Shown piece by piece: positions 24,739 through 64,000 of a stretch of 64,000 bases of DNA. Each line of letters opens with the position of its first letter. Position 1 is the first letter of the stretch. The notes under the pieces are model-generated. The model did not search any database. It was given only the letters and a program-made list of their open reading frames with translations, and had not been told where the DNA came from. This DNA comes from a phage: sequence record PZ445430.1; one strand, written 5' to 3'. A program made the translations under genes and the position numbers.

Positions 24739-24740
24739 TA

Positions 24741-26449: not shown

Positions 26450-26451
26450 AT

Positions 26452-26529
26452 TGACCGTTAACTCAACTGGATAAGAGTACCGAGCTTTTACCTCGTAGGT
26501 TCTGGGTTCGAATCCCAGACGGTCAACCA
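26452..26529 (+). tRNA. tRNA-Lys(TTT)
   Basis: Acceptor tgaccgt/acggtca; D-stem actc/gagt; anticodon loop CTTTTAC; CCA encoded. Confidence 0.65.
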
Positions 26530-26546
26530 ATTTAAAGGAATTTGTT

Positions 26547-26864
26547 ATGAATATTAACAAAGTTCTAGAAACAATATCAGAAATGTCTGGTAGAGCTGGA
26601 AAACGCTTTACTGAACTATGCATTAAAAATCAAAAAGTACCAGAACATCAATGTCATTATTGTCGAGACTGTGAACAATACCATGAAATGTGTATGGTTG
26701 AAGATTGGGTCTGGGATCAGATAAGAAAAGAGCAACCCAAAGATATTGTTCTATGTTTTACTTGTATGGAACGACGTTTAGGACGTAAAATTACGCTCAA
26801 AGATCTTAAACATGTTCCCTGTAACGCTCCTTACTTCATTGGCTTTAGAATGGAGAGATTTTAA
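26547..26864 (+). CDS. Cys-rich hypothetical protein
   Basis: AAAGGAA RBS; CHYCRDC and CFTC motifs. Confidence 0.5.
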   Translation: MNINKVLETISEMSGRAGKRFTELCIKNQKVPEHQCHYCRDCEQYHEMCMVEDWVWDQIRKEQPKDIVLCFTCMERRLGRKITLKDLKHVPCNAPYFIGFRMERF

Positions 26865-26997
26865 TGACTATCTGGTTTTATTTAATGAAGCAGAAAATAA
26901 GAGATTCCTATGTATTCTCTGCTGACTTTACAATAGGTATGTTTATAGCAGGTTTCTGTGAATTTGTAGTTGAAGCCTACATCATAGGAAGTCTTTT

Positions 26998-27071
26998 GCT
27001 CGGTTAGTTTAATGGGAGAACCCCGTCTTTACACGGCGGTTGCGATAGTTCGATTCTATCACCGAGTACCA
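26998..27071 (+). tRNA. tRNA-Val(TAC)
   Basis: Anticodon arm ccgtc-TTTACAC-ggcgg; T-loop TTCGATT; CCA encoded. Confidence 0.7.
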
Positions 27072-27096
27072 ATTAACTCAAAATAAGGAATTGCAA

Positions 27097-27450
27097 ATGC
27101 AATTATCAAGCAAGGTTCAAGGCTATTTCGGGCATGTAACAATGGAGTTCGCTATCTCTAAAGGTTGGGACTTCGAACAAGATCTAGCTGAATTCTACAA
27201 AGATATTGATCTGAATGTACCGTACATAGGACTCTCTACTGGTCAAGAGATCACAGAAGGCGATGTGTTCAAGGCAAGTCAAGGTGAGGTAACACCTAGT
27301 TTTGCCGAGTTCTGGTTAGGAATTACTCTGAAAGATGATGCACCGGATGGTGGTGTGGTTATGCAGAGTATGCACTCTGGAAGCTCTGATTACCTTTTCG
27401 TTAGTGACGTTAAGGAAATACAAGAAATCTGCAAAAATGTACTTGCTTGA
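27097..27450 (+). CDS. hypothetical protein
   Basis: AAGGAA RBS; 3' end overlaps -35 of next promoter. Confidence 0.5.
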   Translation: MQLSSKVQGYFGHVTMEFAISKGWDFEQDLAEFYKDIDLNVPYIGLSTGQEITEGDVFKASQGEVTPSFAEFWLGITLKDDAPDGGVVMQSMHSGSSDYLFVSDVKEIQEICKNVLA

Positions 27451-27471
27451 TGCTTAATTTCTTGTTATAAT
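27443..27471 (+). promoter_or_regulatory. early promoter (TTGCTT-17-TATAAT)
   Basis: -35 at 27443-27448, -10 at 27466-27471. Confidence 0.55.
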
Positions 27472-27734
27472 ATTTATATAAATCGATGAGGAGAAATCCT
27501 CATCAAAGTTCACTAAGGTATTAGCTCGACCTAGGACTGGCTGCCAACAAGCACAGTTGCAATTAGACCCCTAATGGCGGGGGGATACTTTGCAATAAGT
27601 TCTAGATTAGTCCACTAGATTCAGCGGCAACTGAATAGTGTATCGGGTTTGTGAAGAGCGGTTATCCTCTACTGGCTAATGTCTGAGGGTAATACGCACA
27701 CCGAGCTAATAGCCTTAGTAAACTTAAAGATTTT

Positions 27735-27808
27735 GGGGATATAGTTTAATGGTAGAACATCTGCCTTGCACGCAGAAGACGAGGGTTCAACTCCCTCTTT
27801 CTCCACCA
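27735..27808 (+). tRNA. tRNA-Ala(TGC)
   Basis: Anticodon arm tctgc-CTTGCAC-gcaga; T-loop TTCAACT; CCA encoded. Confidence 0.7.
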
Positions 27809-27813
27809 AATTC

Positions 27814-27889
27814 GGGGTCATAGGTTATTTGGTTAAACTTACTGCCTTGCAAGCAGTGGAACTCAGTTCAATTCTGAGTGACTCCACCA
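27814..27889 (+). tRNA. tRNA-Ala(TGC), second copy
   Basis: Anticodon arm actgc-CTTGCAA-gcagt; T-loop TTCAATT; CCA encoded. Confidence 0.6.
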
Positions 27890-27908
27890 AACAAATTAAG
27901 GAAATAAT

Positions 27909-28127
27909 ATGGTATTCTTAGTAGCCTCTGTAGTTCTTGCAGCTTTAGCACTAGCTATCTATTTTAGAACTGTTAAAGATTTAGCTAAAGAAAAGAAAAC
28001 TTTCTTTACTGATTATTCTTGGGGCGCTCCATATACTGTCCGCTTTATCAGCTTAGAAGCTATGCTGATAATGGTATTCAGTGGCGTAGGTTCCATTGTT
28101 GCGGGATTATTATTTATTTCTAACTAA
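27909..28127 (+). CDS. small membrane protein
   Basis: AAGGAAA RBS; two hydrophobic helices. Confidence 0.5.
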   Translation: MVFLVASVVLAALALAIYFRTVKDLAKEKKTFFTDYSWGAPYTVRFISLEAMLIMVFSGVGSIVAGLLFISN

Positions 28128-28134
28128 ATAAAAT

Positions 28135-28215
28135 GGGGATGTGGCGAAATTGGCAGACGCGCTAGATTTAGGTTCTAGTCTCCGGGTGTGGGTTCGAGTC
28201 CCTCCATCCCTACCA
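28135..28215 (+). tRNA. tRNA-Leu(TAG)
   Basis: Anticodon arm ctaga-TTTAGGT-tctag; 9-nt variable region; CCA encoded. Confidence 0.65.
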
Positions 28216-28389
28216 AACATTGGATTAACTCATGATGAAAACTCCTATAACTGATATCTGGTTAGCTGTTAATACGTTAACTAAAGAGTATGTGTTTATA
28301 GAGTATGGTCAGAGGTATGACCAAAAGATGTATAATCTCATACTTCCAGTATCCGCTAATGAAGTTTATGATTTAATCCTGAGATCTAC

Positions 28390-28482
28390 GGAAGAGCAAA
28401 TCGACTTGGTGACGAAAACCACTTGGAAAGTGGCTGACTTGTGAAAGCAGGCTTGAGAGTTCGAATCTCTCTTCTTCCGCCA
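28390..28482 (+). tRNA. tRNA-Ser(GGA)
   Basis: Acceptor ggaagag/ttcttcc; anticodon loop TTGGAAA; long variable arm; T-loop TTCGAAT; CCA encoded. Confidence 0.55.
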
Positions 28483-28496
28483 AACAAAATTTATAG

Positions 28497-28591
28497 GGTA
28501 GGTCAATCCAACGGCTGGCGCTGGACTCCGACTTGAAATCGGTTGATCGTAGTGATACGGTGTAAGGGTTCGATCCCCTTACCTACCCCCA
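28497..28591 (+). tRNA. tRNA-Ser(TGA)
   Basis: Acceptor ggtaggt/acctacc; anticodon loop CTTGAAA; long variable arm; CCA encoded. Confidence 0.6.
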
Positions 28592-28596
28592 AATCT

Positions 28597-28728
28597 TGAA
28601 GTATGCCGGAATCGGTAGACGGGGCTTCCTAAAGGGCGTAAGAGGAACATCCACTCCTCATAAGATACCCGAAAACGAGGCTGAGATAAATGGTCTATCT
28701 CGTGAAGGTTCAAGTCCTTCTGCTTCTT
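28597..28728 (+). ncRNA. tRNA-like element with Leu-type D-arm (about 130 nt)
   Basis: D-arm ccgg-AATCGGTAGAC-gggg, T-arm gaagg-TTCAAGT-ccttc, pairable acceptor; extra 45 nt internally; no CCA. Confidence 0.25.
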
Positions 28729-28906
28729 GATATTCAATGGCTCAAAGAGTAACGGTGCACCTTTCTAGAGAATTTTCTGGGCGAGAATCCAGAAGTAATC
28801 AACTAGTTGTTAGTGTGATGAGTTTCGGAGAGCCGCCACAATTGAAGTCTTTAGAATGGGTATCGCCCTTTAGCCCCTCCGAAAGGGATAACTAGAGATT
28901 TCAATT

Positions 28907-28983
28907 GTGGCTATATCATAATTGGTTAATGATCCTGATTGTGAATCAGGCCTATGTGGATTCGAATTCCACTAGCCACCCCA
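28907..28983 (+). tRNA. tRNA-His(GTG)
   Basis: Acceptor gtggcta/tagccac; anticodon arm cctga-TTGTGAA-tcagg; CCA encoded. Confidence 0.75.
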
Positions 28984-28989
28984 AATATT

Positions 28990-29064
28990 GCGTCCTTATT
29001 TCAATGGAAAGAATGTAAAGCTACGAACTTTACGATCGGGGTTCGATTCCCTGAGGATGCACCA
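28990..29064 (+). tRNA. tRNA-Arg(ACG)
   Basis: Anticodon arm taaag-CTACGAA-cttta; T-loop TTCGATT; CCA encoded. Confidence 0.75.
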
Positions 29065-29088
29065 ATTAACTTATATAGGAAATAAAAT

Positions 29089-29289
29089 ATGGCTGATTTC
29101 TGCAAAGAATGCTCTATCGATATGTGGGGCAAAGATACTGGTGATCTTTCTGGTCTGATTACAGAAGCCGAAGTTAAAGAAGGCTATGGTGCTGTTGTAA
29201 TCTGTGAAGGTTGTGGTATTATTCGTGTTGATCATAATGGTAAACGTCTAGAAGAACCAGATCCAATTGCCACGGTTCCTGTAGAATAA
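29089..29289 (+). CDS. small Cys-rich protein
   Basis: AGGAAA RBS; CKEC..CEGC. Confidence 0.5.
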   Translation: MADFCKECSIDMWGKDTGDLSGLITEAEVKEGYGAVVICEGCGIIRVDHNGKRLEEPDPIATVPVE

Positions 29290-29296
29290 AAATTAT

Positions 29297-29372
29297 TGGG
29301 ATGTAGATCAATTGGCAGATCGTCGGCCTCTGACTCCGAAGGTTCCACGTTCGATCCGTGGCATCCCAGCCA
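29297..29372 (+). tRNA. tRNA-Gln(CTG)
   Basis: D-stem gatc/gatc; anticodon loop CTCTGAC with C-U mismatch closing the stem; CCA encoded. Confidence 0.65.
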
Positions 29373-29378
29373 AATACT

Positions 29379-29454
29379 TGGAGAGTAGTGTAACGGTTAG
29401 CACAACGGCCTTTGACTCCGTTAATGGTAGGTTCGATTCCTCCTTCTCCAGCCA
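29379..29454 (+). tRNA. tRNA-Gln(TTG)
   Basis: Anticodon loop CTTTGAC with same C-U mismatch; CCA encoded. Confidence 0.65.
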
Positions 29455-29460
29455 ATTTAT

Positions 29461-29535
29461 GCGTGATTAGTTCAGTGGCTAGAATAACTGGCTTCCAACC
29501 AGTAGACACGAGTTCGACTCTCGTATCCCGCACCA
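29461..29535 (+). tRNA. tRNA-Gly(TCC)
   Basis: Anticodon arm actgg-CTTCCAA-ccagt; T-loop TTCGACT; CCA encoded. Confidence 0.7.
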
Positions 29536-29550
29536 ATTTAAGGAAACGTT

Positions 29551-29757
29551 ATGGACGTTTTTGAGTTTCGTAATAAAAACCCTAATAGGCGAGTTTTAAT
29601 TATTGGTGAAACATACCGAGCTTATGAGCAGGAAGACGGTTCGGTTTTATTAAATGATGAAAAGCAAGGCTATAGCTTTCATCCGGAAGAAACATATGAA
29701 GAATTTCGTACTAAGTTTCTTTTACCAGACTGGCTAGCAATAGCTGAGCAAAGATAA
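29551..29757 (+). CDS. hypothetical protein
   Basis: AAGGAAA RBS. Confidence 0.5.
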   Translation: MDVFEFRNKNPNRRVLIIGETYRAYEQEDGSVLLNDEKQGYSFHPEETYEEFRTKFLLPDWLAIAEQR

Positions 29758-29764
29758 CCCGAAG

Positions 29765-29923
29765 ATGGCTGATAATCTAAAGGTAGATAAACGAATGAAG
29801 CACGTTGAGGTTGAGTTGGGTGAAGAACGTTTAAAACTCTCCTTCGAATTCTTACAACAGTTGGCTATGACAGTAATGTCTGATAAGTCTCCTGTATTTG
29901 AAAAAGAAATTCCGTTGAAATAA
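29765..29923 (+). CDS. small hypothetical protein (52 aa)
   Basis: Short ORF, weak RBS. Confidence 0.3.
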   Translation: MADNLKVDKRMKHVEVELGEERLKLSFEFLQQLAMTVMSDKSPVFEKEIPLK

Positions 29924-29933
29924 CGGGTTTATT

Positions 29934-30008
29934 GCTCCTAAAGCATTGCTGGCGATGCAGTTGCCTTGTAAGCATCTGAACCGGGTTCGATTCCTGGTGG
30001 GAGCACCA
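29934..30008 (+). tRNA. tRNA-Thr(TGT)
   Basis: D-stem gcat/atgc; anticodon loop CTTGTAA; T-loop TTCGATT; CCA encoded. Confidence 0.65.
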
Positions 30009-30023
30009 AATTTAAAAATTCAT

Positions 30024-30052
30024 TTGCCTTCTCTCTTATTTCTTGTTATAAT
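30024..30052 (+). promoter_or_regulatory. early promoter (TTGCCT-17-TATAAT)
   Basis: -35 at 30024-30029, -10 at 30047-30052. Confidence 0.55.
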
Positions 30053-30082
30053 ATTTATATAAATTAATGAGAGGGAAACCAA

Positions 30083-30376
30083 ATGAAACGTTATCTTTCT
30101 GTCGTGTTCCAAACGGGTGGTCAACGCTACACTTACGAATTTCCTGAGTCTTGGAAAATAAAAGAAGGTGATCAAGTTGTTGTGCTAACACCTCGTGAAG
30201 GCTTCAAAGTAGTAACGGTTAAACAAGTATTTCCAAAAGATCACGAACCATCTAAGTCTATTCAGTACAAGATGATTCACGGTCTGGTACGAAAAGTACC
30301 TAGAACAGAAGTCGAAGTAGATAAAACTGGTGAAGCTAAATACCAGTATACCTCTTACTTAGACGAGTTGTTATAA
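30083..30376 (+). CDS. hypothetical protein
   Basis: GAGAGGGAAA RBS. Confidence 0.5.
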   Translation: MKRYLSVVFQTGGQRYTYEFPESWKIKEGDQVVVLTPREGFKVVTVKQVFPKDHEPSKSIQYKMIHGLVRKVPRTEVEVDKTGEAKYQYTSYLDELL

Positions 30377-30582
30377 TGAGAATTACTTTCACAGAAAAGA
30401 TTATGGGCAATGGTGTTATGATCATTACCGCATGGGATGGTAATCAGTGGTGTAGTGTTTCAGGTATTAAGCCTGAAGAACAAACACTAGAAAATATCTC
30501 AAAGATTAAGCGAAGAATGGCAGAACGTGCACGACTTCCAGGTGCGCCTAGAAATGGTAAACGTTCTGCAATTAAATGTTAA
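30376..30582 (+). CDS. hypothetical protein
   Basis: Coupled to upstream gene (ATGA overlap). Confidence 0.45.
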   Translation: MRITFTEKIMGNGVMIITAWDGNQWCSVSGIKPEEQTLENISKIKRRMAERARLPGAPRNGKRSAIKC

Positions 30583-30583
30583 T

Positions 30584-30660
30584 GCTTCGGTAGCTTAGCG
30601 ATCTAAAGCACTCGGCTGATAACCGAGAGATCGGGGGTTTAAATCCCTCCCGGAGTACCA
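30584..30660 (+). tRNA. tRNA-Ile(GAT)
   Basis: D-stem gctt/aagc; anticodon arm ctcgg-CTGATAA-ccgag; CCA encoded. Confidence 0.75.
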
Positions 30661-30756
30661 AATTTAGGAAGTAAGACTATGCGTCCAGGAAAGTTTAAAA
30701 AAGCTAATTGGTCTAAAGAGTATAAAGAATACTTACTTAGTCTAGTAAAACATAAT

Positions 30757-30832
30757 AGTTAGTTGGCAGAGAGGTTATGCACCTCCTTCATACGGAGCGA
30801 CTACAGTGGTTCAAATCCACTACTAACTACCA
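30757..30832 (+). tRNA. tRNA(CAT), third copy
   Basis: Acceptor agttagt/actaact; anticodon loop TTCATAC; T-arm agtgg-TTCAAAT-ccact; CCA encoded. Confidence 0.65.
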
Positions 30833-49085: not shown

Positions 49086-49574
49086 ACGTTAGCAAAATCT
49101 TCTTGACATTATTTGAGCTGCATGTTATAATAATCTCATAGATTAAAAACATCAACTTGTTTTTACCTCTAGGCCGTAGATTTACATCATTCCTCGTAGG
49201 AAAACACTTGATGACGGTTCTGCTTGCAGGTTCTCGTCAATTGTTCTTCCTCCCCGAGACTCAGGAGGATGTATCAAATCGCACGCGCCTAGAGGGGCTA
49301 ACTCTCATGAAATGGGGGTATATTAACTTTTATTTACCTTATAATATTTAAAGGCAATATTTGTGTTCAAGATGATACACCGGTTGCCGCTCATCTGCTA
49401 GGACGGCACAACACTTTCTAGTAGACTCCTAAGTTTCTAGGAAAACTCACGCATTCTAGGGCAGTTTCTCTCCAACGTCACATATCCTAGGCCGGTTTTC
49501 CTATACAGGGCGGTTATAGGGAGGGCGGTTATTTCTAGACAACATTTTTCCAAAACACATTTCTGGATTTTACT

Positions 49575-50176
49575 GTCGGATTTGCACACTATGTTTCTAG
49601 AAATTTATGGTCGGATTTGCACATTGATAGGAGTCTCCAAAGTTTTTAGGAACACTGAAAATAGCAGCATTATTTCGGGCCGAAGGCCCATATTTGCCTG
49701 CGTTTTTAGAGCCACAGGAATTTTCACTTGTCAAGCGATTTTGCCCCATTTTGCTAATAAAATTTCGCTTTATCTCCACTAATCTCAATTCTAGCCAAAA
49801 CACCCCACATTATCCCCAAAAACGCAGCAAACCGGTGCTGAAGCACCACTACAGCTGCATCCTCCATAGTTCCTCCCAAAAACCTCGTCGGATTCGCACT
49901 TCTCCCCAAACCCACACAATCACACACCCTCTCATCGAAGTCACAAAAATATTCCTGAAACCATAAATCTGTCTCCTAGCAAACTCATGTCGTATTTGCA
50001 CATATACGGCTGGATTTGTGCGCAGCACGAGTCTGCCCGAGTTTTTAGGAAAATTCATTGTCGGATTCGCACACTATAAAAATATTTGCCATCGGATTTG
50101 CACACTACCAAAAATTGTCGGATTCGCACATATACGCTGGCACGTAATCCGTGGGGGCAAATGTCGGATTTGCACA
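49575..50176. repeat. iteron-like array, about 9 copies of GTCGGATT(T/C)GCACA
   Basis: Copies near 49575, 49610, 49887, 49989, 50060, 50092, 50117, 50163 plus a variant at 50010. Confidence 0.75.
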
Positions 50177-50228
50177 AAAGCGCAGGGCAAATAGAAAATG
50201 CCCTGCCTGCCGAAATGCAACTGATAAT

Positions 50229-50400
50229 GAGATTGATTCGCATTTGAGAAGTGGAATGCGAATGAGAATAGTTATCATTTGACTACCTGAATACGAATGA
50301 GAATGATTTGCATTTAGGAAGGGAAACGCGAATGATAATGAGAATGATTCGCATTTAGGAAGGGAAACGCGAATGATAATGAGAATGATTCGCATTTAGA
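50229..50400. repeat. tandem direct repeats, about 3.5 copies of a 41-bp unit
   Basis: Unit gagaatgattcgcatttaggaagggaaacgcgaatgataat; two perfect copies at 50299-50380. Confidence 0.8.
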
Positions 50401-50429
50401 AAGCGAAGTGAGAAACACTGTTATTTAAG

Positions 50430-50438
50430 TTATCCACA
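50430..50438 (+). promoter_or_regulatory. DnaA box TTATCCACA
   Basis: Exact 9-mer consensus; TTATCAACA-like variants at 50491-50513. Confidence 0.55.
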
Positions 50439-50521
50439 GGTTTATTAACAGCACGATTTGACTTGACAAAATCCTAGCGATTTTGAGGCGTTTTCAACAG
50501 ACTTATCAACAGGTTATTCTA

Positions 50522-50537
50522 CTGTATATTTATACAG
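50522..50537. promoter_or_regulatory. LexA (SOS) box CTGTATATTTATACAG
   Basis: Palindromic CTGT-N8-ACAG; extended TACTGTATATTTATACAGTA is one substitution from the E. coli consensus. Confidence 0.6.
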
Positions 50538-50570
50538 TATTTCTGTGTAGTGAATAACTCTAATATAGCT

Positions 50571-50603
50571 CTAAAACGCTCTGTAACGCATTCTAACGCG
50601 TTT
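50571..50603 (+). repeat. direct repeat copy 1 (ctaaaacgctctgtaacgc..gcgttt)
   Basis: Near-identical to 54700-54731; both preceded by ttatcaacagg. Confidence 0.7.
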
Positions 50604-50686
50604 ATTTTTGGAGGAGGTATTTTAATAAGGGGAAATTTGTTTGCAGGCAGAAAAGGCGGGGCGCAACTATCTGGCCCCCGTTATTA

Positions 50687-50881
50687 TTAGTCTGGTAGTC
50701 GATGTGTGATCTTTTCGCTTTCGCCGTAGGAGTCTACCAAATGTTGATAGTAACCATCGTTATCATAAATCACTTTATCATAATCGCCACGCTCCACCGC
50801 TTGCCGATTTTCCCGCGTATCAGGCACAAAGAAAGTATCAACGGTAACAGTAGTTTTAGTTACAACAATTTTATCACTCAT
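50687..50881 (-). CDS. hypothetical protein
   Basis: Last gene of minus-strand operon. Confidence 0.45.
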   Translation of the reverse strand: MSDKIVVTKTTVTVDTFFVPDTRENRQAVERGDYDKVIYDNDGYYQHLVDSYGESEKITHRLPD

Positions 50882-51011
50882 AACGCCATCGCTCCTAGAA
50901 TGAGAATGATTATCAATATCATTGTAAAGCCATTACCAAATCGTAAACGCTGGGAATGTTTCCCAGCGGTATTATTAGATTTATGGCTTTGTGTTTTTCG
51001 CCACCAGCTAT

Positions 51012-51224
51012 TCACGGTTTTAAATTCTCTATAGTTAATTTTGCGCGGATAGTAATTCCGTATAATTCGCCTCCCTTGTTTCTTACATCAGGTAGCCAGT
51101 CCCACAATTCAGGGTATCCGCTTAAAATTCCTAGCGATGCAAGATTAGCAATAAAACCGGCTATAGTAACCGCTTCCAGTGAAATAGTTACACGATTATT
51201 AATAACTAAAGTAAACTTTTTCAT
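51012..51224 (-). CDS. hypothetical protein
   Basis: Minus-strand operon member; coupled. Confidence 0.45.
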   Translation of the reverse strand: MKKFTLVINNRVTISLEAVTIAGFIANLASLGILSGYPELWDWLPDVRNKGGELYGITIRAKLTIENLKP

Positions 51225-51565
51225 TGCGCCACCTTTCGAAACGCTGTTTCGATACTTTCAGCGGTTGATTGAATATACGCGCCTTTCATAATCAGGCGCT
51301 CCGTACATACTTTGCGGAAAATGTCAATAAATTCATTTTCATTTTCCGCTATTAACGCTTCCCCCATAACCTGAATATCGCATGAGTTAAAAGTAAGAAA
51401 CTGAAAGGCAAGCTCGCGAGCGACAACGGCAGAAATTTTATAATGTGCTTTGCCTTCATAGATATTAACCACGCCTTTATAAACTGGTGAAAGCTGATTT
51501 AAATAGTTTGCTAATAATGCCGAACGGCAATTAGCAACAAAACGATTGCCCTCGTAAATAACCAT
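51221..51565 (-). CDS. hypothetical protein
   Basis: Minus-strand operon member. Confidence 0.5.
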   Translation of the reverse strand: MVIYEGNRFVANCRSALLANYLNQLSPVYKGVVNIYEGKAHYKISAVVARELAFQFLTFNSCDIQVMGEALIAENENEFIDIFRKVCTERLIMKGAYIQSTAESIETAFRKVAQ

Positions 51566-51674
51566 TTGTCAAGCTCCTAAAGCTGGGAAAATATCATGTA
51601 CATTTTTAAAACAAATGCGGCGACGGAACATACAACGCCAACGGTAGCAAACGCTAGAGCAATATATAAGGATC

Positions 51675-51887
51675 TCATAATACCCCACGAAACGCAGCGT
51701 AAAAAGTAGCAAAGTGTTTAACCGTTTCGGCTATCAAATTGCCACGCTTGTCAAATTTCTTTTCTGTAACACGGAAAGCGTTTTTGTTGCGTGCTACATA
51801 TTCGATTTTACAATCTGGACGCTCGAACGTGTTAACATCCACCAGCTTAAAACCTTTGGAACGGGCAAGGGAAACATTCTTTAACAT
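51675..51887 (-). CDS. hypothetical basic protein
   Basis: AGGGG RBS. Confidence 0.45.
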   Translation of the reverse strand: MLKNVSLARSKGFKLVDVNTFERPDCKIEYVARNKNAFRVTEKKFDKRGNLIAETVKHFATFYAAFRGVL

Positions 51888-51889
51888 TT

Positions 51890-52039
51890 TTATTCCCCTT
51901 TACCAGTCATACAGCCTAACAAGTAAGAAAACCCCGCGATACCTGCTCCAATAATAACCACGTTAACGCCGAAAGCTATTACAAACAGTGATAAAATAGC
52001 GCCCAAGATACTAGCTAGAATAGATCGAAAAATAACCAT
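51890..52039 (-). CDS. small membrane protein (49 aa)
   Basis: AGGAG RBS; two hydrophobic helices; below track size cutoff. Confidence 0.35.
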   Translation of the reverse strand: MVIFRSILASILGAILSLFVIAFGVNVVIIGAGIAGFSYLLGCMTGKGE

Positions 52040-52085
52040 TTTATTAGCTCCTAGAAATTAGGGGATAATATACCCCCTTTATTAA

Positions 52086-52313
52086 TTACATTAAAACAAT
52101 TTTTGCCGCTTGCTTTTTAGTGCAATGGTTAGCTTTCAATTCATCCAGCAAAAATCCGGCGGTTTGCTGGTCAATCTTGTCATTGTCGTAAAGCCCCTGA
52201 ATGGTAACATAAGTTTTACCTATGCCGAACTCAGAAACCATAACGCTGACAATAGCGGGAACGGATACCCATTCCATACCGTTAAAAATTGCAGAAGATG
52301 ATGAATGTACCAT
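52086..52313 (-). CDS. hypothetical protein
   Basis: Minus-strand operon member. Confidence 0.45.
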   Translation of the reverse strand: MVHSSSSAIFNGMEWVSVPAIVSVMVSEFGIGKTYVTIQGLYDNDKIDQQTAGFLLDELKANHCTKKQAAKIVLM

Positions 52314-52420
52314 TTTAACGCCTCCTAGAAATCAGGGAAAATTTTCAATCCACCGTTTCGGTGTAAAGGCATTATAACAAAAAAGGTCGCCATAATAGGC
52401 GACCTTTACAAAACTTTACA

Positions 52421-52915
52421 TTAGACTATTTCTAATGCTTCAACATTAAAACAGCGTTTTAGTTCTTTCTGTAAAACGGCATATTCATCCCAACGGGAAT
52501 TATCAGGAATATAAACAAGCTGTTTTAATCGGTTTGCGTATAATAACGCCTTGTTACCAATTATTTCCGCGCCACCGTGTTTAATAATTAGTTTCATAAC
52601 GGTATTAATAGGATCGCCGCCATTTACATAAGTACCGGACTTACTCAATTGATAATGATAAAGACTCGCATATACATTATCATTTTCAATCCATTCCCCT
52701 GTTTCTTCATCTTCTTCCCCATCGCTACCGAAACGAGAAGCATTATCATATGCGTGTTCGTTTGCGAAAGCATCCAGATCACAGCCAGCGGGAACAAAAT
52801 GTTCCTCCGTCCAGCCCTCCCCGCAATAGCCAGTATGACAATCAACTAAAACGATCATATCGTGTTTAGCTTCACTCACACTTTCTAGCGAAAAGCCATA
52901 TTTTTCTTCTGACAT
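52421..52915 (-). CDS. acidic hypothetical protein
   Basis: 164 aa with Asp/Glu-rich stretch (SDGEEDEETGEWIEND). Confidence 0.5.
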   Translation of the reverse strand: MSEEKYGFSLESVSEAKHDMIVLVDCHTGYCGEGWTEEHFVPAGCDLDAFANEHAYDNASRFGSDGEEDEETGEWIENDNVYASLYHYQLSKSGTYVNGGDPINTVMKLIIKHGGAEIIGNKALLYANRLKQLVYIPDNSRWDEYAVLQKELKRCFNVEALEIV

Positions 52916-52979
52916 AACTAGACTCCTAACAATTAACAGGGAAATAGTAAAGCGGGGAAATAATCCCCGCTAGTAATTA

Positions 52980-53981
52980 TTATTCGCTTTCGGTGTTAGT
53001 GGCAAAGGTAGAAATATCGATACCTTTTACCATTTCGTCGATCATTTCAGCAATATTGAAACTCTGTACCATTTCCAACATTGCCGCTTCCATTGCCGCG
53101 CCTGCTACCGCTTTAGCTTTTGCGTTAGTCGGGGCGTACTGGTCAACCGCTACGCTTAACAGGTTAGCGATCACTACGCGACCAATCGGAGTATCAATAT
53201 AACCTTTAATCATAAACGGCGCTTTTTTAGCCGCTACTTTTGTGATTTGAGTCAATGCAATTTTACCCGCTTCCAGTTTAGCAGCGTTTACAACGGCAGA
53301 TTTGTTAGCAGCAACGATAGAAGATACTTTAGACATAATATTTCCTTTATTTTCAGTAGTTTGCGCATTTGCGCTTGAAGTTTGAGAGTTTACAGCCTGT
53401 TTTGCTACGTTGTCAACTGGTTTTAGTGTAAATCCAGCATTTGCAATGTTTGATTCATTCCCATACTCTAAATAATCGTTAGGGATCAACATGTTACCGC
53501 TAGCGCGTTCAAAACACAATACGCCAGTTGTTTCGATTGCGTCACTATCAGCACCTTTATAACTGGATGATAATTCACGCCAGATACTATTTAATAACGA
53601 TCCGACACTATCCAATCTGATATTATTTACTTTTGTTGCTGTTACCTGCTCTTTTTCTTGCACGTTATATAATCGCGCAATGTAACCACTATGGGACTCA
53701 CTATAACCAACAATGATAAAATCAATATCAGTTCCCCGACTATTACGGAAAATGTGATAATCACGGTTGAAAATTACTAGCGCCCTTGTCTGGTCTAGTA
53801 ATAGCGTGAAATCATCGACTGAATAATGAGTATCATTATTGTCTAAAATTTCATCGTGAATCTTTTCAACCATTGCCGCCTTATGTTGTAGGCTTGCTGG
53901 ACTTGATCCGTCTAGCAGGTTGCGCAAACTACCCTTAATAATAGTGGCGTTTGCTGGTACTGCAATTCTTACAGTAGACAT
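52980..53981 (-). CDS. hypothetical protein (333 aa), first gene of minus-strand operon
   Basis: Long ORF with Ala/Lys-rich C-terminal half; no recognisable motif. Confidence 0.55.
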   Translation of the reverse strand: MSTVRIAVPANATIIKGSLRNLLDGSSPASLQHKAAMVEKIHDEILDNNDTHYSVDDFTLLLDQTRALVIFNRDYHIFRNSRGTDIDFIIVGYSESHSGYIARLYNVQEKEQVTATKVNNIRLDSVGSLLNSIWRELSSSYKGADSDAIETTGVLCFERASGNMLIPNDYLEYGNESNIANAGFTLKPVDNVAKQAVNSQTSSANAQTTENKGNIMSKVSSIVAANKSAVVNAAKLEAGKIALTQITKVAAKKAPFMIKGYIDTPIGRVVIANLLSVAVDQYAPTNAKAKAVAGAAMEAAMLEMVQSFNIAEMIDEMVKGIDISTFATNTESE

Positions 53982-54230
53982 TTCTTTGTCTCCATCGTTA
54001 ATCGGTGAGTGAATGATATAGATATTTGTTTGTTAGGGGCAAGAAAAAAGAAAAGGTTTTTTATTCCTTGCCTAACGCTTGTTTTTATGCTAATCGCGCG
54101 TTTTCTATTTCTAGCTATCTGTAAGCGTACACAAGGCTTTATTATAATAAGGGTAGCAGTGAGAAAACGCCGTGTAGCGTGTTCTAGGCCGCTTAAATTT
54201 GATTGCGGTTGTTACTGCTACCATTCTACC

Positions 54231-54246
54231 CTGTATATTTATACAG
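54231..54246. promoter_or_regulatory. LexA (SOS) box CTGTATATTTATACAG
   Basis: Identical 16-mer to 50522-50537; about 250 bp upstream of operon start; half-site CTGTATATA at 54255. Confidence 0.6.
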
Positions 54247-54266
54247 TAGGATAACCTGTATATAAG

Positions 54267-54324
54267 TCTGTGGATAAGTCGCCAAATCGTCGCCTATTGC
54301 GTCAAGTTATTTTGTGCTGTGGAT
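54267..54324. promoter_or_regulatory. two DnaA boxes (TGTGGATAA) in reverse orientation
   Basis: Exact boxes at 54267-54275 and 54316-54324. Confidence 0.55.
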
Positions 54325-54339
54325 AACTTTGTGAATAAC

Positions 54340-54440
54340 CTAAATGATAGTGGTTCTCACTTAGCTGATAGTTTCTTATAGTTATTATTTCTCTTTAATT
54401 TATATGTATATTATATAATATGAAATAGTTAGTTGGCTAA
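54340..54440. other. AT-rich tract, possible DNA-unwinding element
   Basis: About 85 percent A+T next to DnaA boxes. Confidence 0.35.
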
Positions 54441-54699
54441 TAGGTTTTTAGATTATTAATAGTCTGCTAACTGTTTCGGCTGCTACAATCCACCAGCGTG
54501 ACTATCCTTCTAGTGATTGTTAGTCTGCTACTATTTTCTAGCGTTACCAATTCTTAAATGATAATCATTTGCATTGTAGGAAACTTACGAAAACAGTAAG
54601 AAAATAACATGTCAATAGCTAACGCTGCAATGCACAAAAATAAATTTTGTCAATACCCGAAAGTTATTAAATGTGATGCGGATAAGTTATCAACAGGGT

Positions 54700-54731
54700 C
54701 TAAAACGCTCTGTAACGCTCTCTAAGCGTTT
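54700..54731 (+). repeat. direct repeat copy 2
   Basis: Matches 50571-50603; preceded by ttatcaacagg at 54687-54697. Confidence 0.7.
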
Positions 54732-55116
54732 TTAGTCAAAAGCTAGGCAAGTGCATTGCCACTATGCCGATCTCCTCACCACGAGGATTTTAGATTTTGT
54801 CAAGTACCCTAGAGCAGATATAAATGAAAAAATTACTTGCTAAAATGGTTGTTTTGGTGTTATTCGCACGCCTGTTTCATTAAATTTAGTGCGCCGCTTG
54901 CCGTGGTGCGGGTAGTGGTTTTCTTTACGTTTCTTTACAAAAATAAGGTTGCGCCATTTTCGGGAATCCCCTATTATTTATCTCGTAGGACGGCAAGACG
55001 GAAACGAAAGGCCAGAATACAACGGCGGGGAAGTTTACCGCCACGCTCTTTAAAAATTAGGGAACATCTTAAAGCCTATCGGCGGTAAACTTATACATTA
55101 TAAGGAACTGACGATA

Positions 55117-55977: not shown

Positions 55978-56394
55978 ATGTCTAACGTTAAAACCGAAAA
56001 AACCGCAAAATTCTCTTGGAACGAAGAAAACACCGAAAAAGCTGTTTCTATGTATTCTGAAATGGTCGCTAAAAGCGGAATTGAATTTGCTAACACTGAC
56101 GGCTTAAAAGAAATTGCCGCCGCCGTTGGCGCCGCTAGTCCGGTGTCTGTACGTTCTAAACTGACAAGCGCGAAAGCGTACCAGAAAAGCGATAAACCGC
56201 GTAAAGTTGGCGGCGGGTCTAGTGTCCGTAAAGCTCACTATGTGCGCGTTATGGCTAAACATGCCATTGATGCTGGCGTTATCAAAGACGCTGACGATCT
56301 GGCAAGTCTGGAAAGTGCAAAACTGGAAACGCTGGAAGCCGTAGCGCAATTGTTAGGCGTAGCGGAGGAAGTAAAACAGGCCGCAGGTGAATAA
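55978..56394 (+). CDS. hypothetical protein
   Basis: Internal ATG of track ORF 55960..56394 after TGGAG RBS. Confidence 0.5.
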   Translation: MSNVKTEKTAKFSWNEENTEKAVSMYSEMVAKSGIEFANTDGLKEIAAAVGAASPVSVRSKLTSAKAYQKSDKPRKVGGGSSVRKAHYVRVMAKHAIDAGVIKDADDLASLESAKLETLEAVAQLLGVAEEVKQAAGE

Positions 56395-56777: not shown

Positions 56778-58445
56778 ATGAATATTTCCGCAGAAAAACA
56801 AGCCCAGATCGTTAAACTTGCCGCTGATTTCAATTTCTACGGTAAGCGTTTACGCGCTACTAAACTGGAAGTTTGTGACGATATTTCAAAAGCTGTTTAC
56901 GATACAACGAAACATTCAACCGCAATTTGTGACTGGCTGGAAGCAAATAAGCCAGCTAAACCGAAAGCGGCAAAAGCTGAAAAGGCGATTAAAAATGATG
57001 ATCGCCCCGAAGCGGCGGGAATTGTTTCTAGTACCGTGGAACAATGGGAAGTTAAATCCGGTCGCCGTTTTATTCTAACGTCGATTCAAAATAATACTTT
57101 CCCGCATAAAAACTTTTTAGCAAGTCTGGAAAAATTCGCTGAATATATCGGCGCTGAATTGCTCGTTTCTAAATTCATTTACAATAAAAATGGATTCCAG
57201 AACGGCGACGGCAGCAAAGAAAAAATTAAATACGATCCCGCATTTGATAAATATATCTGTGATAAAAATGTTTTCTTGAATAATCGCCGCTTTGCTTTCA
57301 TGTCTGAAATTAACGTATTACCAACGGCAGATTATCCGCTTACAGGATTTGCAGAAACCGCCACGGCTTTAAATATTGACGGGCTGGCAATTGGTGCGGC
57401 AAAAATTACCGCTGAAAGTGTACCAGCGTTAAAAGGTGAAGTAGTGCGCCGTATGTATTCAACCGGAACGGCTACGCTTAAAAACTACATTCAGCAGAAA
57501 GCAGGTCAAAAAGCTGAGGCTCTGCATAATTTCGGCGCTTTGCTGGTGGAGTTCGACGACGATGGCGAATTTTTTGTGCGCCAGCTTGAAACAATGGACG
57601 AAAGCGGAATGTTCTATGATTTGAATATTTGCGCTATGCCTACCGGATGTTTTGAAACGTCCGATCATGTTTTAGGCTTGCAGTATGGCGATATTCACGC
57701 CGAAAAATTAGATGATGAATGCGCCGTTGCGTCATGGGCTAGTGAAAACAGCTTGCTTGATATTCTCAAGCCTAAATATCAGTTTATTCATGATGTGCAT
57801 GATTTTACATCGCGCAATCATCATAACCGCGCAAGTGGTGTATTCCTTGCTAAACAGTACGCCGCCGGACGTGACAAAGTTATTGACGATCTCATTGATA
57901 CCGGTCGCGTGTTGGAGTCAATGGAGCGTGATTTCTCTCAAACAATCATTGTTGAGTCTAACCATGATTTGGCGCTTTCCCGCTGGCTGGATGATCGTAA
58001 CGCAAACATTAAGGACGATCCCGCAAACGCCGAACTATATCACCGTTTAAACGCTGCAATTTACGCCGCAATCGGTGAACGTGACGAAACGTTTAACGTT
58101 CTAGATTACGCCTTGCGTAGTGTCGCAGGTTGTGAATTTAACGCTATTTTCCTGACGACAGACCAATCATTTAAAATCGCTGGCATTGAGTGCGGCGTAC
58201 ATGGTCACAATGGCATTAACGGCAGTCGGGGCAATCCTAAGCAGTTTAAAAAGTTGGGACGCCTTAACACTGGTCATACTCATACGGCTAGCATTTATGG
58301 CGGTGTTTATACCGCTGGCGTTGCTGGTAGTCTCGATATGGGTTACAACGTGGGCGCGTCAAGCTGGACGCAAACGCATTTAATTACCTATGCAAACGGT
58401 CAAAGAACATTGATCGACTTTAAGAATGGTAAATTCTTTGCATAA
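56778..58445 (+). CDS. A1: A1-like pre-early protein with metallophosphatase-type domain
   Basis: 555 aa; motifs GDIHAE, ESNHD, GHNG, GHTHT; size and position fit T5 A1 from memory. Confidence 0.55.
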   Translation: MNISAEKQAQIVKLAADFNFYGKRLRATKLEVCDDISKAVYDTTKHSTAICDWLEANKPAKPKAAKAEKAIKNDDRPEAAGIVSSTVEQWEVKSGRRFILTSIQNNTFPHKNFLASLEKFAEYIGAELLVSKFIYNKNGFQNGDGSKEKIKYDPAFDKYICDKNVFLNNRRFAFMSEINVLPTADYPLTGFAETATALNIDGLAIGAAKITAESVPALKGEVVRRMYSTGTATLKNYIQQKAGQKAEALHNFGALLVEFDDDGEFFVRQLETMDESGMFYDLNICAMPTGCFETSDHVLGLQYGDIHAEKLDDECAVASWASENSLLDILKPKYQFIHDVHDFTSRNHHNRASGVFLAKQYAAGRDKVIDDLIDTGRVLESMERDFSQTIIVESNHDLALSRWLDDRNANIKDDPANAELYHRLNAAIYAAIGERDETFNVLDYALRSVAGCEFNAIFLTTDQSFKIAGIECGVHGHNGINGSRGNPKQFKKLGRLNTGHTHTASIYGGVYTAGVAGSLDMGYNVGASSWTQTHLITYANGQRTLIDFKNGKFFA

Positions 58446-59273: not shown

Positions 59274-60008
59274 ATGAATCAAGTTAAAATGAATATTACC
59301 CGCACTTTCCCGCATATTTCCCGCGTTATGATTTGGGATTTAGACGGGACAATCATTAATTCATTCCATCGTGTAGCGCCTTGCTTTGATGATAACGGGA
59401 ATTTAAATTTAGTTAAGTATTCCCGCGAAGCCTGCAAACACGATTTAATTATGCAGGATTCTTTATTGCCATTGGTTGAATATATGCGCCAATGTATGAA
59501 TGATGCAAATACATTAAATATTATTTGTACCGCGCGCCTAATGTCTAAAAGCGATTATTTTTATTTGCGCAAACAAGGCTTGCGAGGGCGCGGAAATAGT
59601 AATATTCGCGTATTTTCCCGCGATACATTACATAAATACTTTGATGCAAATAAGGTTAGCGAAATATATCACAGCAAAGACGCAGTATATAAAAGCTATT
59701 ACTTTGAACTGTTTAAACAGCTATATCCAAACGCTGATTTTACAATGATTGATGATCATAAAGGTGTATTATCAGCGGCGGCAAGTGCTGGATTTAAAAC
59801 GCTGGATGCTCAAGCCGTTAACGATATCCTATCAATCGGCGTAACATTGATCGGTGAAACCTTTATTGATGAATCGCTTGATGATGATAACGATTATCAA
59901 TTCCTAGCCGATAGATTAAAAATGTGTTGGGAAGGTATGACCGAGGAAGAACGCGCAGAATATAGTTGCAGCCCGCAACAATTCATTGATAAATTAAAAG
60001 TCGCCTAA
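59274..60008 (+). CDS. dmp: HAD-family 5'-deoxyribonucleotidase-like protein
   Basis: 244 aa; HAD motif I MIWDLDGTII. Confidence 0.6.
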   Translation: MNQVKMNITRTFPHISRVMIWDLDGTIINSFHRVAPCFDDNGNLNLVKYSREACKHDLIMQDSLLPLVEYMRQCMNDANTLNIICTARLMSKSDYFYLRKQGLRGRGNSNIRVFSRDTLHKYFDANKVSEIYHSKDAVYKSYYFELFKQLYPNADFTMIDDHKGVLSAAASAGFKTLDAQAVNDILSIGVTLIGETFIDESLDDDNDYQFLADRLKMCWEGMTEEERAEYSCSPQQFIDKLKVA

Positions 60009-63518: not shown

Positions 63519-64000
63519 ATGGCAAATGATGTATTAGTTCCTGATCTCATGTCTCCCGAAGGCATGGATGTTATTGAAGCCTATTTACAGTGTGGTAGTG
63601 ATGTTCCTGCCGCTGCTCGTAGTCTTGGGATGTCCGAGATTGCATTCCGTGATATAATGAATCGTGGGGAAGTTAAAAACTATCTTAACGATATCTTTAT
63701 GGAAAGCGGCTTCCGTAATCGCGACCGTTTGTTTGGGGTTCTTGATGAAGTTATCAAGCGCAAGTTGGAAGAACTCGAAGAAACTGGCATGGGTTCTGAC
63801 CAGGATATCATGGATATTCTCTGGAAGGCGCACAAGATGAAGATGGAAGAAATGAAAATGATGGTAGAACTGGAGAAAGTGAAGGCAGCAGCCCGTACTC
63901 CAGCTAATCAGACTAACATTCAGAATAATATTATTGCTGGAAGTGGTGACGAAAACTATATGAATCTTATTACCGCTCTAGCAGGAGGAGGTAAGAGATA
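63519..64000 (+). CDS. partial CDS, terminase small subunit-like (HTH plus coiled coil)
   Basis: AAGGAGG RBS; ORF open to window end; HTH-like [16 protein letters not shown]; assignment tentative. Confidence 0.35.

What the first reader, a model, noticed from the sequence alone, without database searches (positions are those of the whole stretch)
50503..54731. Direct-repeat-bounded 4.2-kb cassette with LexA and DnaA boxes and an eight-gene operon of unknown function
Two near-identical about 45-bp direct repeats flank 4.2 kb at 50503-50603 and 54687-54731. The left copy is split by an insertion of about 57 bp that carries a near-consensus LexA box, and an identical LexA box lies inside the right end at 54231-54246. 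The enclosed DNA holds a minus-strand operon (333-aa protein, acidic 164-aa protein, six small proteins) with no motif I recognise, plus DnaA boxes and an AT-rich tract. SOS operators are unexpected in a strictly lytic T5-like phage. The architecture suggests a mobile or recombination-delimited cargo cassette, possibly an anti-defence or DNA-entry module.
Basis: partly seen in the sequence, partly recalled or inferred. Interest (0 to 1): 0.85.

Follow-up and report, generated by a model that had tools for sequence, protein, structure and literature searches.

The report
T5-type injection-stop repeats with LexA sites
This is the known far end of the first-injected DNA of a T5-like phage: an accessory gene block flanked by a conserved inverted repeat, not a mobile cassette. 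The 20-bp palindrome at the inner end of each repeat arm is a near-perfect host LexA (SOS repressor) site, conserved across the phage family and, as far as I could find, never described as such.

Summary
The window is Escherichia phage SuperGirl (Epseptimavirus, T5-like). The split direct repeat, two identical CTGTATATTTATACAG sites, the DnaA boxes and a minus-strand gene block are all there.

The main symmetry is different, though. It is a 138-bp inverted repeat, 50402-50539 against 54229-54366. These arms correspond to T5's IRD'-spacer-IRC' (repeat region 3, the injection stop signal) and IRC-spacer-IRD (repeat region 2). They bracket orthologues of the T5 pre-early genes 011-017.

The "direct repeats" are copies of a multi-copy conserved element, T5's IRB family. 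They are not insertion scars. No recombinase or empty site was found.

The LexA-type 20-mers are T5's "palindrome D". They score 25.7 and 22.7 bits on an SOS-box matrix. The next best site in the 64 kb scores 9.7 bits. The pair recurs beside DnaA boxes in T5 and in Klebsiella, Pectobacterium and Proteus relatives. Two Vibrio relatives keep the DnaA-linked site in variant form. Neither site overlaps a homologue of a known promoter. I found no mention of LexA in the T5 literature I could access.

In Klebsiella and Pectobacterium relatives the enclosed operon is inverted.

Verdict: known architecture, plus a probably unreported and testable LexA link to T5's unsolved two-step injection.

The parts
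49569..50186 (.). Array of GTCGGATT(T/C)GCACA repeats, equivalent to T5 'direct repeat D', in the outer part of repeat region 3. GCGCAGGG at about 50179 is the homologue of the T5 major nick 1 (7.9%) site.
   Evidence: Families D4-D6. The sequence matches the T5 AY587007 annotation and sequence.
50212..50421 (.). Tandem 35/41-bp repeats with core AATGAGAATGATTCGCATT, equivalent to T5 direct repeat C and palindromes E-I of the injection stop signal region.
   Evidence: Families D1-D3. Compared with T5.
50402..50539 (+). Repeat region 3 arm of the 138-bp inverted repeat (T5 IRC'-spacer-IRD'). From outer to inner it holds GTGAGAAACACT, a DnaA pair, a spacer with TTGACTTGACA, a second DnaA pair, GGTTATTC and the LexA-type 20-mer.
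   Evidence: I1 and I2. Arm alignment. Conservation across 56 unique arms. T5 annotation.
50430..50450 (+). DnaA box pair TTATCCACA ggt TTATTAACA.
50491..50511 (+). DnaA box pair TTTTCAACA gac TTATCAACA, 8 bp from the LexA-type site.
50520..50539 (.). LexA-type operator 1, TACTGTATATTTATACAGTA, equivalent to T5 'palindrome D'. It differs from the consensus TACTGTATATATATACAGTA at one position.
   Evidence: 25.7 bits. Conserved at 23 bits or more in all 36 related loci that cover it. Found in T5, KpGranit, My1, Proteus phage 1 (19.5 bits at this arm) and Vibrio phages. Labelled only 'palindrome D' in AY587007.
50570..50603 (+). IRB-family element TCTAAAACGCTCTGTAACGCATTCTAACGCGTTT.
   Evidence: D11. 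Copies of the family occur in all relatives.
50687..53981 (-). Accessory pre-early gene block of ten CDS.
- 52980-53981: 333 aa, T5 011 homologue, DUF7566.
- 52421-52915: acidic 164 aa, pI 4.5, absent from T5 but present in KpGranit and My1.
- 52086-52313: T5 012 homologue.
- 51890-52039: hydrophobic (GRAVY 1.68) T5 013 homologue; T5 013 is annotated with two transmembrane domains.
- 51675-51887: 70 aa, the Ung-dependent AP-site nickase.
- 51577-51678: hydrophobic 33 aa.
- 51221-51565: 114 aa.
- 51012-51224, 50878-51015.
- 50687-50881: T5 017 homologue.
   Evidence: ORFs. GenBank CDS. PHROGs and Pfam. tblastn against T5, KpGranit and My1. pI values. Functions from bioRxiv 10.64898/2026.04.02.716235.
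52951..52971 (-). Terminator-like hairpin just after the 333-aa gene. T5 has an annotated terminator at the same place.
52382..52407 (-). Terminator-like hairpin after the 164-aa gene.
54013..54042 (-). Sigma-70 promoter TTGCCC-18-TATCAT, the homologue of the T5 promoter upstream of gene 011. It lies about 190 bp from LexA-type site 2.
54170..54195 (-). Degenerate inverted copy of the IRB-family element, at the T5 IRB' position.
54229..54248 (.). LexA-type operator 2, CCCTGTATATTTATACAGTA, at the inner end of T5 IRD.
   Evidence: 22.7 bits. Scores range from 16.6 to 25.7 bits in related loci.
54229..54366 (-). Repeat region 2 arm of the inverted repeat (T5 IRD-spacer-IRC), with DnaA pairs at 54257/54269 and 54318/54330.
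54410..54439 (-). Promoter-like TAGCCA-18-TATAAT in the AT-rich tract just outside the repeat region 2 arm, pointing into it. The sequence is conserved in T5.
   Evidence: Function not shown.
54687..54731 (+). Unsplit copy joining a DnaA-like box (TTATCAACA) to an IRB-family element.
   Evidence: A near-identical copy is in KpGranit at 5637.

Best explanation
Shown. The region is the distal half of the first-step-transfer (pre-early) DNA of a T5-like phage. An accessory, dispensable pre-early gene block holds orthologues of T5 011-017 plus extra genes. It is driven by a homologue of the T5 gene-011 promoter. It sits between the two arms of the conserved inverted repeat that T5 workers call IRC-spacer-IRD (repeat region 2) and IRD'-spacer-IRC' (repeat region 3, the injection stop signal). 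Each arm carries four DnaA boxes in one orientation, arranged as two pairs. At its inner end, 8 bp from the last DnaA box, each arm carries a near-consensus 20-bp LexA operator, T5's 'palindrome D'.

Inferred. When this DNA enters the cell, host LexA and DnaA occupy the arms. The repeat region 3 site is the primary one: it is always strong, and in T5 it lies about 270-290 bp inside the point where DNA transfer pauses. I propose that the bound proteins form a barrier or anchor at the boundary between first- and second-step DNA. The barrier would insulate the paused DNA from transcription reading out of the pre-early operon, or mark the DNA for the phage A1/A2 proteins. LexA self-cleavage after A1-driven host DNA breakdown would make the complex sensitive to the SOS response.

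For: Identity:
- The region is 99.9% identical to phage SuperGirl. Related sequence is found in 464 phage records, and 121 of them cover at least 80% of the query.
- A2, A1 and dmp lie next door.
- Orthology to T5 011-017 is shown by tblastn and PHROGs.
- The arms map onto T5's annotated IRC, IRD, IRD', IRC', palindrome D and IRB'.
- This architecture and its DnaA boxes are described in bioRxiv 10.1101/866236.

LexA reading:
- The two sites score 25.7 and 22.7 bits against 9.7 for the next best 20-mer in 64 kb.
- Paired strong sites occur in every related locus that covers the region.
- They occur next to DnaA boxes in T5, Sugarlandvirus, Myunavirus, Novosibvirus and two Vibrio lineages whose A1 protein is only 32-34% identical.
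- Substitutions seen at the repeat region 3 site keep the score at 23 bits or more (for example CTGT to CTGG).
- A1-bearing phages that are not organised like T5 have no site above 10.4 bits.
- Orthologous arms are far more alike than the two arms within one genome (local alignment score 171 against 67). Selection on shared motifs, not gene conversion, therefore maintains the repeat.

Dispensability: T5 lacking hegG-017 is viable, and 011, 013 and 015 are toxic host-takeover genes.
Against: - No binding or expression data exist for LexA on this DNA.
- Neither site overlaps a homologue of the three characterised T5 pre-early promoters. The 011 promoter is about 190 bp away, and the strong A2/A1-side promoter candidates are about 1 kb away.
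- The only promoter-like match over site 1 (TTATCA-16-TATATT, 9 of 12) is no better than chance. The scan found 25 promoter-like sites against 19.9 expected.
- The repeat region 2 site is degraded in some relatives: 16.6 bits in several Tequintavirus-like loci and 10.4 bits in Vibrio phage Achelous.
- The T5 deletion of hegG-017 is viable, so at least that arm is not essential.
- The proposed role at the transfer boundary is inference from position only.
- My SOS-box matrix was built from sites recalled from memory.
- Older T5 papers (Heusterspreute 1987, Wang 2005, Davison 2015) could not be read, so the claim that the LexA reading is unreported is provisional.
Confidence: 0.7

Rival explanations
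1. One reading: a mobile or recently inserted cargo cassette delimited by the 45-bp direct repeats, with the left repeat split by a later 56-bp insertion.
For: The repeat is real. The enclosed gene content and length vary between relatives. Davison notes that this coding region is far less conserved than its flanks. The orientation differs between genera.
Against: The repeat unit is a multi-copy element present in T5, KpGranit, My1 and Vibrio phages. Both the split and the unsplit forms are conserved in KpGranit. The right copy lies 320 bp outside the inverted repeat arm, so the two copies do not bound the variable DNA. No recombinase is encoded. No empty site was seen in 36 loci. The core genes are collinear with T5.
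Confidence: 0.07
2. The two sites are classical SOS operators. Each arm contains an inward-facing promoter whose -10 element lies inside the LexA box and whose -35 element overlaps a DnaA box. This would give SOS-inducible sense and antisense transcripts over the accessory operon.
For: TTATCA-16-TATATT overlaps site 1. Known LexA boxes commonly overlap -10 elements (own knowledge). The inverted-repeat symmetry would provide one sense and one antisense promoter whichever way the operon is oriented.
Against: The hexamers are weak, and the -35 element is weaker still in the repeat region 2 arm (TTATAT). Promoter-like hits are at chance frequency. No such promoter is annotated or reported in T5. 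The putative short transcript downstream of site 1 shows no significant folding (z -0.8 and -1.6), and Rfam finds nothing.
Confidence: 0.15
3. Palindrome D is recognised by a phage protein, such as the dimeric DNA-binding protein A2 or an A1/A2 complex, or it acts as a cruciform structural signal. Its likeness to a LexA box would then have no function.
For: A1 and A2 are required to restart transfer, and A2 binds double-stranded DNA (paper text). Davison postulates a specific A1/A2 site near the injection stop signal. A2 and A1 are conserved wherever the palindrome is found.
Against: The match covers the whole 20-bp LexA consensus, including the flanking TA and the AT-rich centre. It persists across phages whose A1 has diverged to 32-34% identity, while their hosts share one LexA motif. 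A 9+9-bp palindrome is too short for a stable cruciform.
Confidence: 0.15
4. The DnaA boxes together with the AT-rich tract at 54370-54440 form a DnaA-dependent replication origin or a DnaA-titrating locus like datA or DARS.
For: There are eight DnaA boxes in ordered, same-orientation arrays, with an adjacent AT-rich stretch. Davison notes the resemblance to oriC.
Against: T5 origins map near the centre of the genome, and the replication genes are not expressed during first-step transfer (paper text). The AT-rich tract lies outside only one of the two arms. This was not tested further here.
Confidence: 0.04

Closest known systems
Phage T5 left-terminal-repeat repeat regions 2 and 3: IRC-spacer-IRD, IRD'-spacer-IRC', palindrome D, IRB/IRB' and the injection stop signal (Wang 2005 annotation AY587007; Davison, bioRxiv 10.1101/866236)
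   Same: Same position beside A2/A1/dmp. Same inverted repeat of about 131-138 bp flanking the 011-017 genes. Same paired DnaA boxes with 3-bp gaps. Same 20-bp palindrome, with an identical 16-mer core. Same outer repeat arrays and nick-site homologue.
   Different: [quoted passage not shown] It carries extra genes, including the 164-aa acidic protein. The palindrome has not been labelled as a LexA site in the T5 annotations or the papers I could read.
E. coli-type LexA (SOS) operators, such as those of recA, umuDC, dinD and the colicin genes
   Same: CTGT-N8-ACAG palindrome with an AT-rich centre. One mismatch to TACTGTATATATATACAGTA. Scores at or above the best chromosomal boxes.
   Different: The sites do not overlap any known promoter. 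They sit in a strictly lytic phage, at the inner ends of a long inverted repeat next to DnaA box arrays. Binding has not been tested.
Invertible phage segments such as Mu G, P1 C and Hin
   Same: A gene block bounded by inverted repeats that exists in both orientations in related genomes.
   Different: No invertase gene is present. The two orientations are seen only between genera, not as a switch. The arms are 138 bp long and full of host-factor sites.
Leading regions of conjugative plasmids, the first DNA to enter the recipient, which carry anti-restriction and SOS-modulating genes (own knowledge; an analogy, not homology)
   Same: The first-entering DNA carries small host-takeover genes and interfaces with the host SOS system.
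   Different: No sequence or gene homology was found. Here the SOS link is a cis-acting site, not a psiB-like protein.

Membership tests
T5-type first-step-transfer region with injection-stop repeat regions 2 and 3 | Lies next to A2, A1 and dmp in a Demerecviridae genome | tested here: met
   A2 at 55982-56394, A1 at 56778-58445 and the dmp-sized ORF at 59274-60008. A1 tblastn. The record's taxonomy is Epseptimavirus.
T5-type first-step-transfer region with injection-stop repeat regions 2 and 3 | An inverted repeat pair of about 131 bp (IRC-spacer-IRD and IRD'-spacer-IRC') flanking a variable coding region | tested here: met
   50402-50539 against 54229-54366, 105 of 140 positions identical. 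Aligns with the annotated T5 arms.
T5-type first-step-transfer region with injection-stop repeat regions 2 and 3 | Eight DnaA or near-DnaA boxes in pairs separated by 3 bp | tested here: met
   Four pairs, four consensus boxes and four with one mismatch.
T5-type first-step-transfer region with injection-stop repeat regions 2 and 3 | The enclosed genes are orthologues of T5 011-017 | tested here: met
   tblastn against T5 gives 57-94% identity for six of the ten ORFs, in the same order. PHROGs and Pfam.
T5-type first-step-transfer region with injection-stop repeat regions 2 and 3 | DNA transfer actually pauses here (two-step injection) | not testable with these tools
   Shown experimentally only for T5 and BF23, according to Davison.
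LexA (SOS) operator | CTGT-N8-ACAG palindrome matching TACTG(TA)5CAGTA | tested here: met
   19 of 20 and 17 of 20 positions match the consensus; 25.7 and 22.7 bits.
LexA (SOS) operator | Overlaps or adjoins the promoter it represses | tested here: not met
   About 190 bp from the homologue of the 011 promoter and about 1 kb from the strong A2/A1-side promoter candidates. Only a chance-level promoter-like match overlaps site 1.
LexA (SOS) operator | Bound by LexA, with expression or function changing on SOS induction | not testable with these tools
   Needs gel-shift, ChIP or RNA-seq experiments.
LexA (SOS) operator | Conserved under selection in relatives whose hosts share the LexA motif | tested here: met
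   Present in all 36 covering loci and in six genera or lineages, including Vibrio phages.
Transposon-like or inserted cassette bounded by direct repeats | The flanking direct repeats are specific to the insertion, and empty sites exist | tested here: not met
   The repeat is a multi-copy conserved element. No empty site was found among the related loci.
Transposon-like or inserted cassette bounded by direct repeats | Encodes a transposase, integrase or homing nuclease | tested here: not met
   No such Pfam or PHROG hit in any of the ten ORFs.
Site-specific invertible segment (Gin/Cin/Hin type) | An invertase gene next to the inverted repeats | tested here: not met
   Inversion is seen only between genera.
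DNA N-6-adenine methyltransferase (the UniRef name attached to the 333-aa protein family) | A methyltransferase domain or fold | tested here: not met

The most novel reading that the evidence does not exclude
Host LexA, together with DnaA, is a conserved trans-acting component of the Demerecviridae injection-stop/restart switch. LexA bound to palindrome D at the boundary between first- and second-step DNA helps to hold or mark the paused DNA. A1-driven breakdown of host DNA then activates RecA, LexA cleaves itself, and this couples host takeover to second-step transfer or to shut-off of the pre-early genes.
Probability: 0.12. Interest if true: 0.85.

Novelty: new member of a known kind. Interest (0 to 1): 0.5.

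Why it matters
How T5 stops and restarts DNA injection has been unresolved for about 60 years. Recent papers still describe the stop signal only as repeats, palindromes and DnaA boxes.

The most conserved palindrome of that signal is a top-scoring LexA operator, kept from E. coli phages to Vibrio phages. This yields a concrete and inexpensive set of tests: LexA binding assays, lexA and recA host mutants, and point mutants of palindrome D.

It would also be a rare case of a strictly lytic phage wired to the SOS repressor.

If LexA turns out not to bind, the region remains an ordinary orthologue of a well-described T5 feature.

Tried and rejected
1. Covariation test with A1-bearing phages of hosts that use a different LexA motif. 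Rhizobium phage RHph_N1_10 and Vibrio phage 1.063.O turned out not to have a T5-like pre-early region. They served only as negative controls, with no site above 10.4 bits.

3. A small RNA or terminator downstream of LexA site 1. Folding is not better than shuffled sequence (z -0.8 and -1.6). Rfam found nothing relevant.

4. A replication-origin reading of the DnaA boxes plus the AT-rich tract. Set aside because published T5 origin mapping places origins elsewhere.

5. Literature. No paper linking LexA or SOS to T5 pre-early DNA was found. Davison 2015 (PMC4743489) is not held.

6. Gene conversion as the reason for the inverted repeat. Rejected because orthologous arms are much more alike than the two arms within one genome.

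Full report
**Source and context.** Window 50300-54900 is 99.9% identical to Escherichia phage SuperGirl (Bas29, MZ501105; Demerecviridae, Epseptimavirus). Related sequence is present in 464 phage records. GenBank places A2 and A1 just to the right of the region, with a dmp-sized ORF beyond them, and ten minus-strand hypothetical CDS inside it. The window is therefore the T5-type pre-early, or first-step-transfer (FST), region, read in the opposite orientation to the standard T5 map.

**Checking the observation.**
- The direct repeat is 50503-50513 plus 50570-50603 against 54687-54731. Its 27-nt core is 93% identical (D11).
- CTGT-N8-ACAG occurs only twice in 64 kb, and both copies are CTGTATATTTATACAG.
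- I built a symmetrised matrix from 29 E. coli SOS boxes. The boxes were recalled from memory, so the matrix is approximate. On it the 20-mers score 25.7 and 22.7 bits. The best chromosomal boxes score 21-24 bits, and the next best 20-mer in the window scores 9.7.
- Eight DnaA or one-mismatch boxes lie in four pairs with 3-bp gaps.

**What it is.** Reading T5 directly shows the same layout.
- The two arms are T5's IRC-spacer-IRD (repeat region 2) and IRD'-spacer-IRC' (repeat region 3, annotated as the injection stop signal).
- The 20-mer is T5's annotated "palindrome D". The 16-mer core is identical in the two phages.
- To the left of the arm in the window lie the equivalents of T5's direct repeats C and D and of the 7.9% nick site.
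- Davison's preprint (10.1101/866236) describes this inverted repeat, its paired DnaA boxes, the high variability of the enclosed coding region and the proposal that both arms belong to the stop signal.
- The enclosed genes are orthologues of T5 011 (333 aa, DUF7566), 012, 013, the Ung-dependent AP-site nickase, and the next genes up to 017.
- The acidic 164-aa protein has no T5 counterpart but is present in KpGranit and My1.
- Annor et al. (10.64898/2026.04.02.716235) show that T5 lacking hegG-017 is viable and that 011, 013 and 015 are toxic host-takeover genes.
- The operon's promoter is the homologue of the T5 011 promoter, at 54042-54013.
- Two internal terminator-like hairpins indicate more than one transcription unit.

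**Is it a mobile cassette?** No.
- Both arms, with 1.7-4.1 kb between them, are present in every related locus that covers the region.
- The IRB-type element is multi-copy in T5, KpGranit, My1 and Vibrio phages. The unsplit copy, GTTATCAACAGGGTCTAAAACGCTCT, is nearly identical in a Klebsiella phage.
- No recombinase is encoded.
- The weaker idea of a recombination-delimited variable region does hold. In KpGranit (Sugarlandvirus) and My1 (Myunavirus), homologues of the 333-aa and 164-aa proteins lie in the same order but on the opposite strand relative to A1/A2 (KpGranit also keeps the 114-aa homologue, My1 the 64-aa one). The homologue of the 333-aa protein then sits next to the repeat region 3 arm.
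- The block between the arms has therefore been inverted at least once. Davison described these phages as having the T5 genes "missing and replaced". The homology found here (E-values of 4e-35 and 6e-34) argues for inversion.

**The LexA-type sites.** The pair recurs widely.
- T5: 21.7 and 25.7 bits.
- KpGranit: 25.7 and 25.7 bits.
- My1: 23.9 and 25.2 bits.
- Proteus phage 1: 19.5 and 24.7 bits.
- Vibrio phage 70E35-1: three sites of 19.6-22.7 bits.
- Vibrio phage Achelous: 24.7 bits at the repeat region 3 position and a decayed 10.4-bit site at the repeat region 2 position.

In the Vibrio phages the rest of the arm cannot be aligned (local alignment scores of 17-18). Most of these sites still sit within about 10-75 bp of consensus TTATCCACA boxes. 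The exception is one of the three sites in 70E35-1, at locus position 13629, which has none nearby.

The repeat region 3 site scores 23 bits or more in all 36 covering IMG/VR loci, and the substitutions seen there are ones LexA tolerates. The repeat region 2 site is weaker and sometimes broken. Arms anchored on the palindrome show fixed spacing and 90% or higher conservation of the DnaA pairs and the palindrome. Orthologous arms resemble each other far more than the two arms within one genome (171 against 67). The inverted symmetry is therefore kept by selection on the shared sites.

Neither site overlaps a known promoter homologue. They are not classical operators for the characterised pre-early promoters.

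**Literature status.** I found no mention of LexA or SOS in Davison 2020, Annor 2026, the BF23 genome paper or a 2026 PNAS discussion of the stop signal. Targeted full-text searches also found nothing. AY587007 labels the site only "palindrome D". Davison 2015 and the 1987 and 2005 papers could not be read.

**How it most likely works.**
- Shown: the anatomy and its conservation.
- Established knowledge: LexA binds CTGT-N8-ACAG sites of this quality with high affinity, and Enterobacterales and Vibrio share this motif (own knowledge).
- Inferred: the entering DNA is bound by LexA and DnaA at both arms. The repeat region 3 complex sits about 270-290 bp inside the T5 shear point. That point is 9618 in AY587007 coordinates, against palindrome D at 9330-9349.
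- I favour a protein barrier or anchor at the boundary between first- and second-step DNA, one that responds to SOS. I put LexA binding at roughly 0.8 and any specific role at roughly 0.3.

The rivals are inward SOS-controlled promoters, a site for a phage protein, and an origin-like element. Each is listed with its evidence.

**Verdict.** The architecture is already known from T5, and the cassette reading fails. The LexA-operator identity of palindrome D appears unreported, is robustly conserved, and makes the old injection-stop problem testable. Interest is moderate, at 0.5.

Noticed in passing
window 50529-50530 and 54238-54239; loci L003-L039: The only asymmetric positions of the 20-bp palindrome are the central dinucleotide, and they flip between AA and TT among close relatives. 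The state is never TA or AT. [quoted passage not shown] The cause is unexplained. A perfect palindrome may be avoided, or the centre may be flipped by some DNA process.
   Followed up: partly
L040 (KpGranit) 5855-9501; L041 (My1) 7854-11824: The accessory operon between the inverted repeat arms is inverted relative to A1/A2 in Sugarlandvirus and Myunavirus, while the shared homologues (333-aa and 164-aa proteins, plus the 114-aa protein in KpGranit) keep their order. The published description treats these genes as replaced rather than inverted.
   Followed up: yes
window 52980-53981 (-): Many UniRef entries name this protein family (T5 011, DUF7566) 'DNA N-6-adenine methyltransferase'. Neither Pfam nor the predicted fold supports that name, which looks like a propagated mis-annotation.
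   Followed up: yes
window 54149-54225: A strong hairpin (17-nt arms; -26.5 kcal/mol as RNA, z -4.4) lies between LexA-type site 2 and the 011-type promoter. No counterpart was obvious in T5.
   Followed up: partly
window 49569-50421: About ten GTCGGATTTGCACA repeats and five tandem 35/41-bp repeats match T5 direct repeats D and C of the injection stop signal. GCGCAGGG near 50179 matches the T5 7.9% nick site.
   Followed up: partly
window 50570-50603, 54170-54195, 54687-54731; L043 11923, 12845, 13582; L048/L049 (Achelous) near record position 120760: The CTAAAACGC...TTCTAAGCGGTTTTAG element is itself an imperfect palindrome. It is conserved from E. coli phages to Vibrio phages, in several copies per pre-early region. 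What binds it, or what it does, is unknown.
   Followed up: partly
window 51577-51678 (-): A 33-aa very hydrophobic ORF is annotated inside the operon and has no PHROG match. A meeting report mentions an unannotated 31-aa T5 pre-early peptide that triggers RpoS degradation (PMC11806420). No link between the two was tested.
   Followed up: no
window 18450-30832: A cluster of 27 tRNA genes, typical of T5-like phages.
   Followed up: no
window 63523-64000: With the offset to MZ501105 (window = record minus 47299), the window runs about 480 bp past the end of that record. The source is probably a differently permuted or near-identical record.
   Followed up: no
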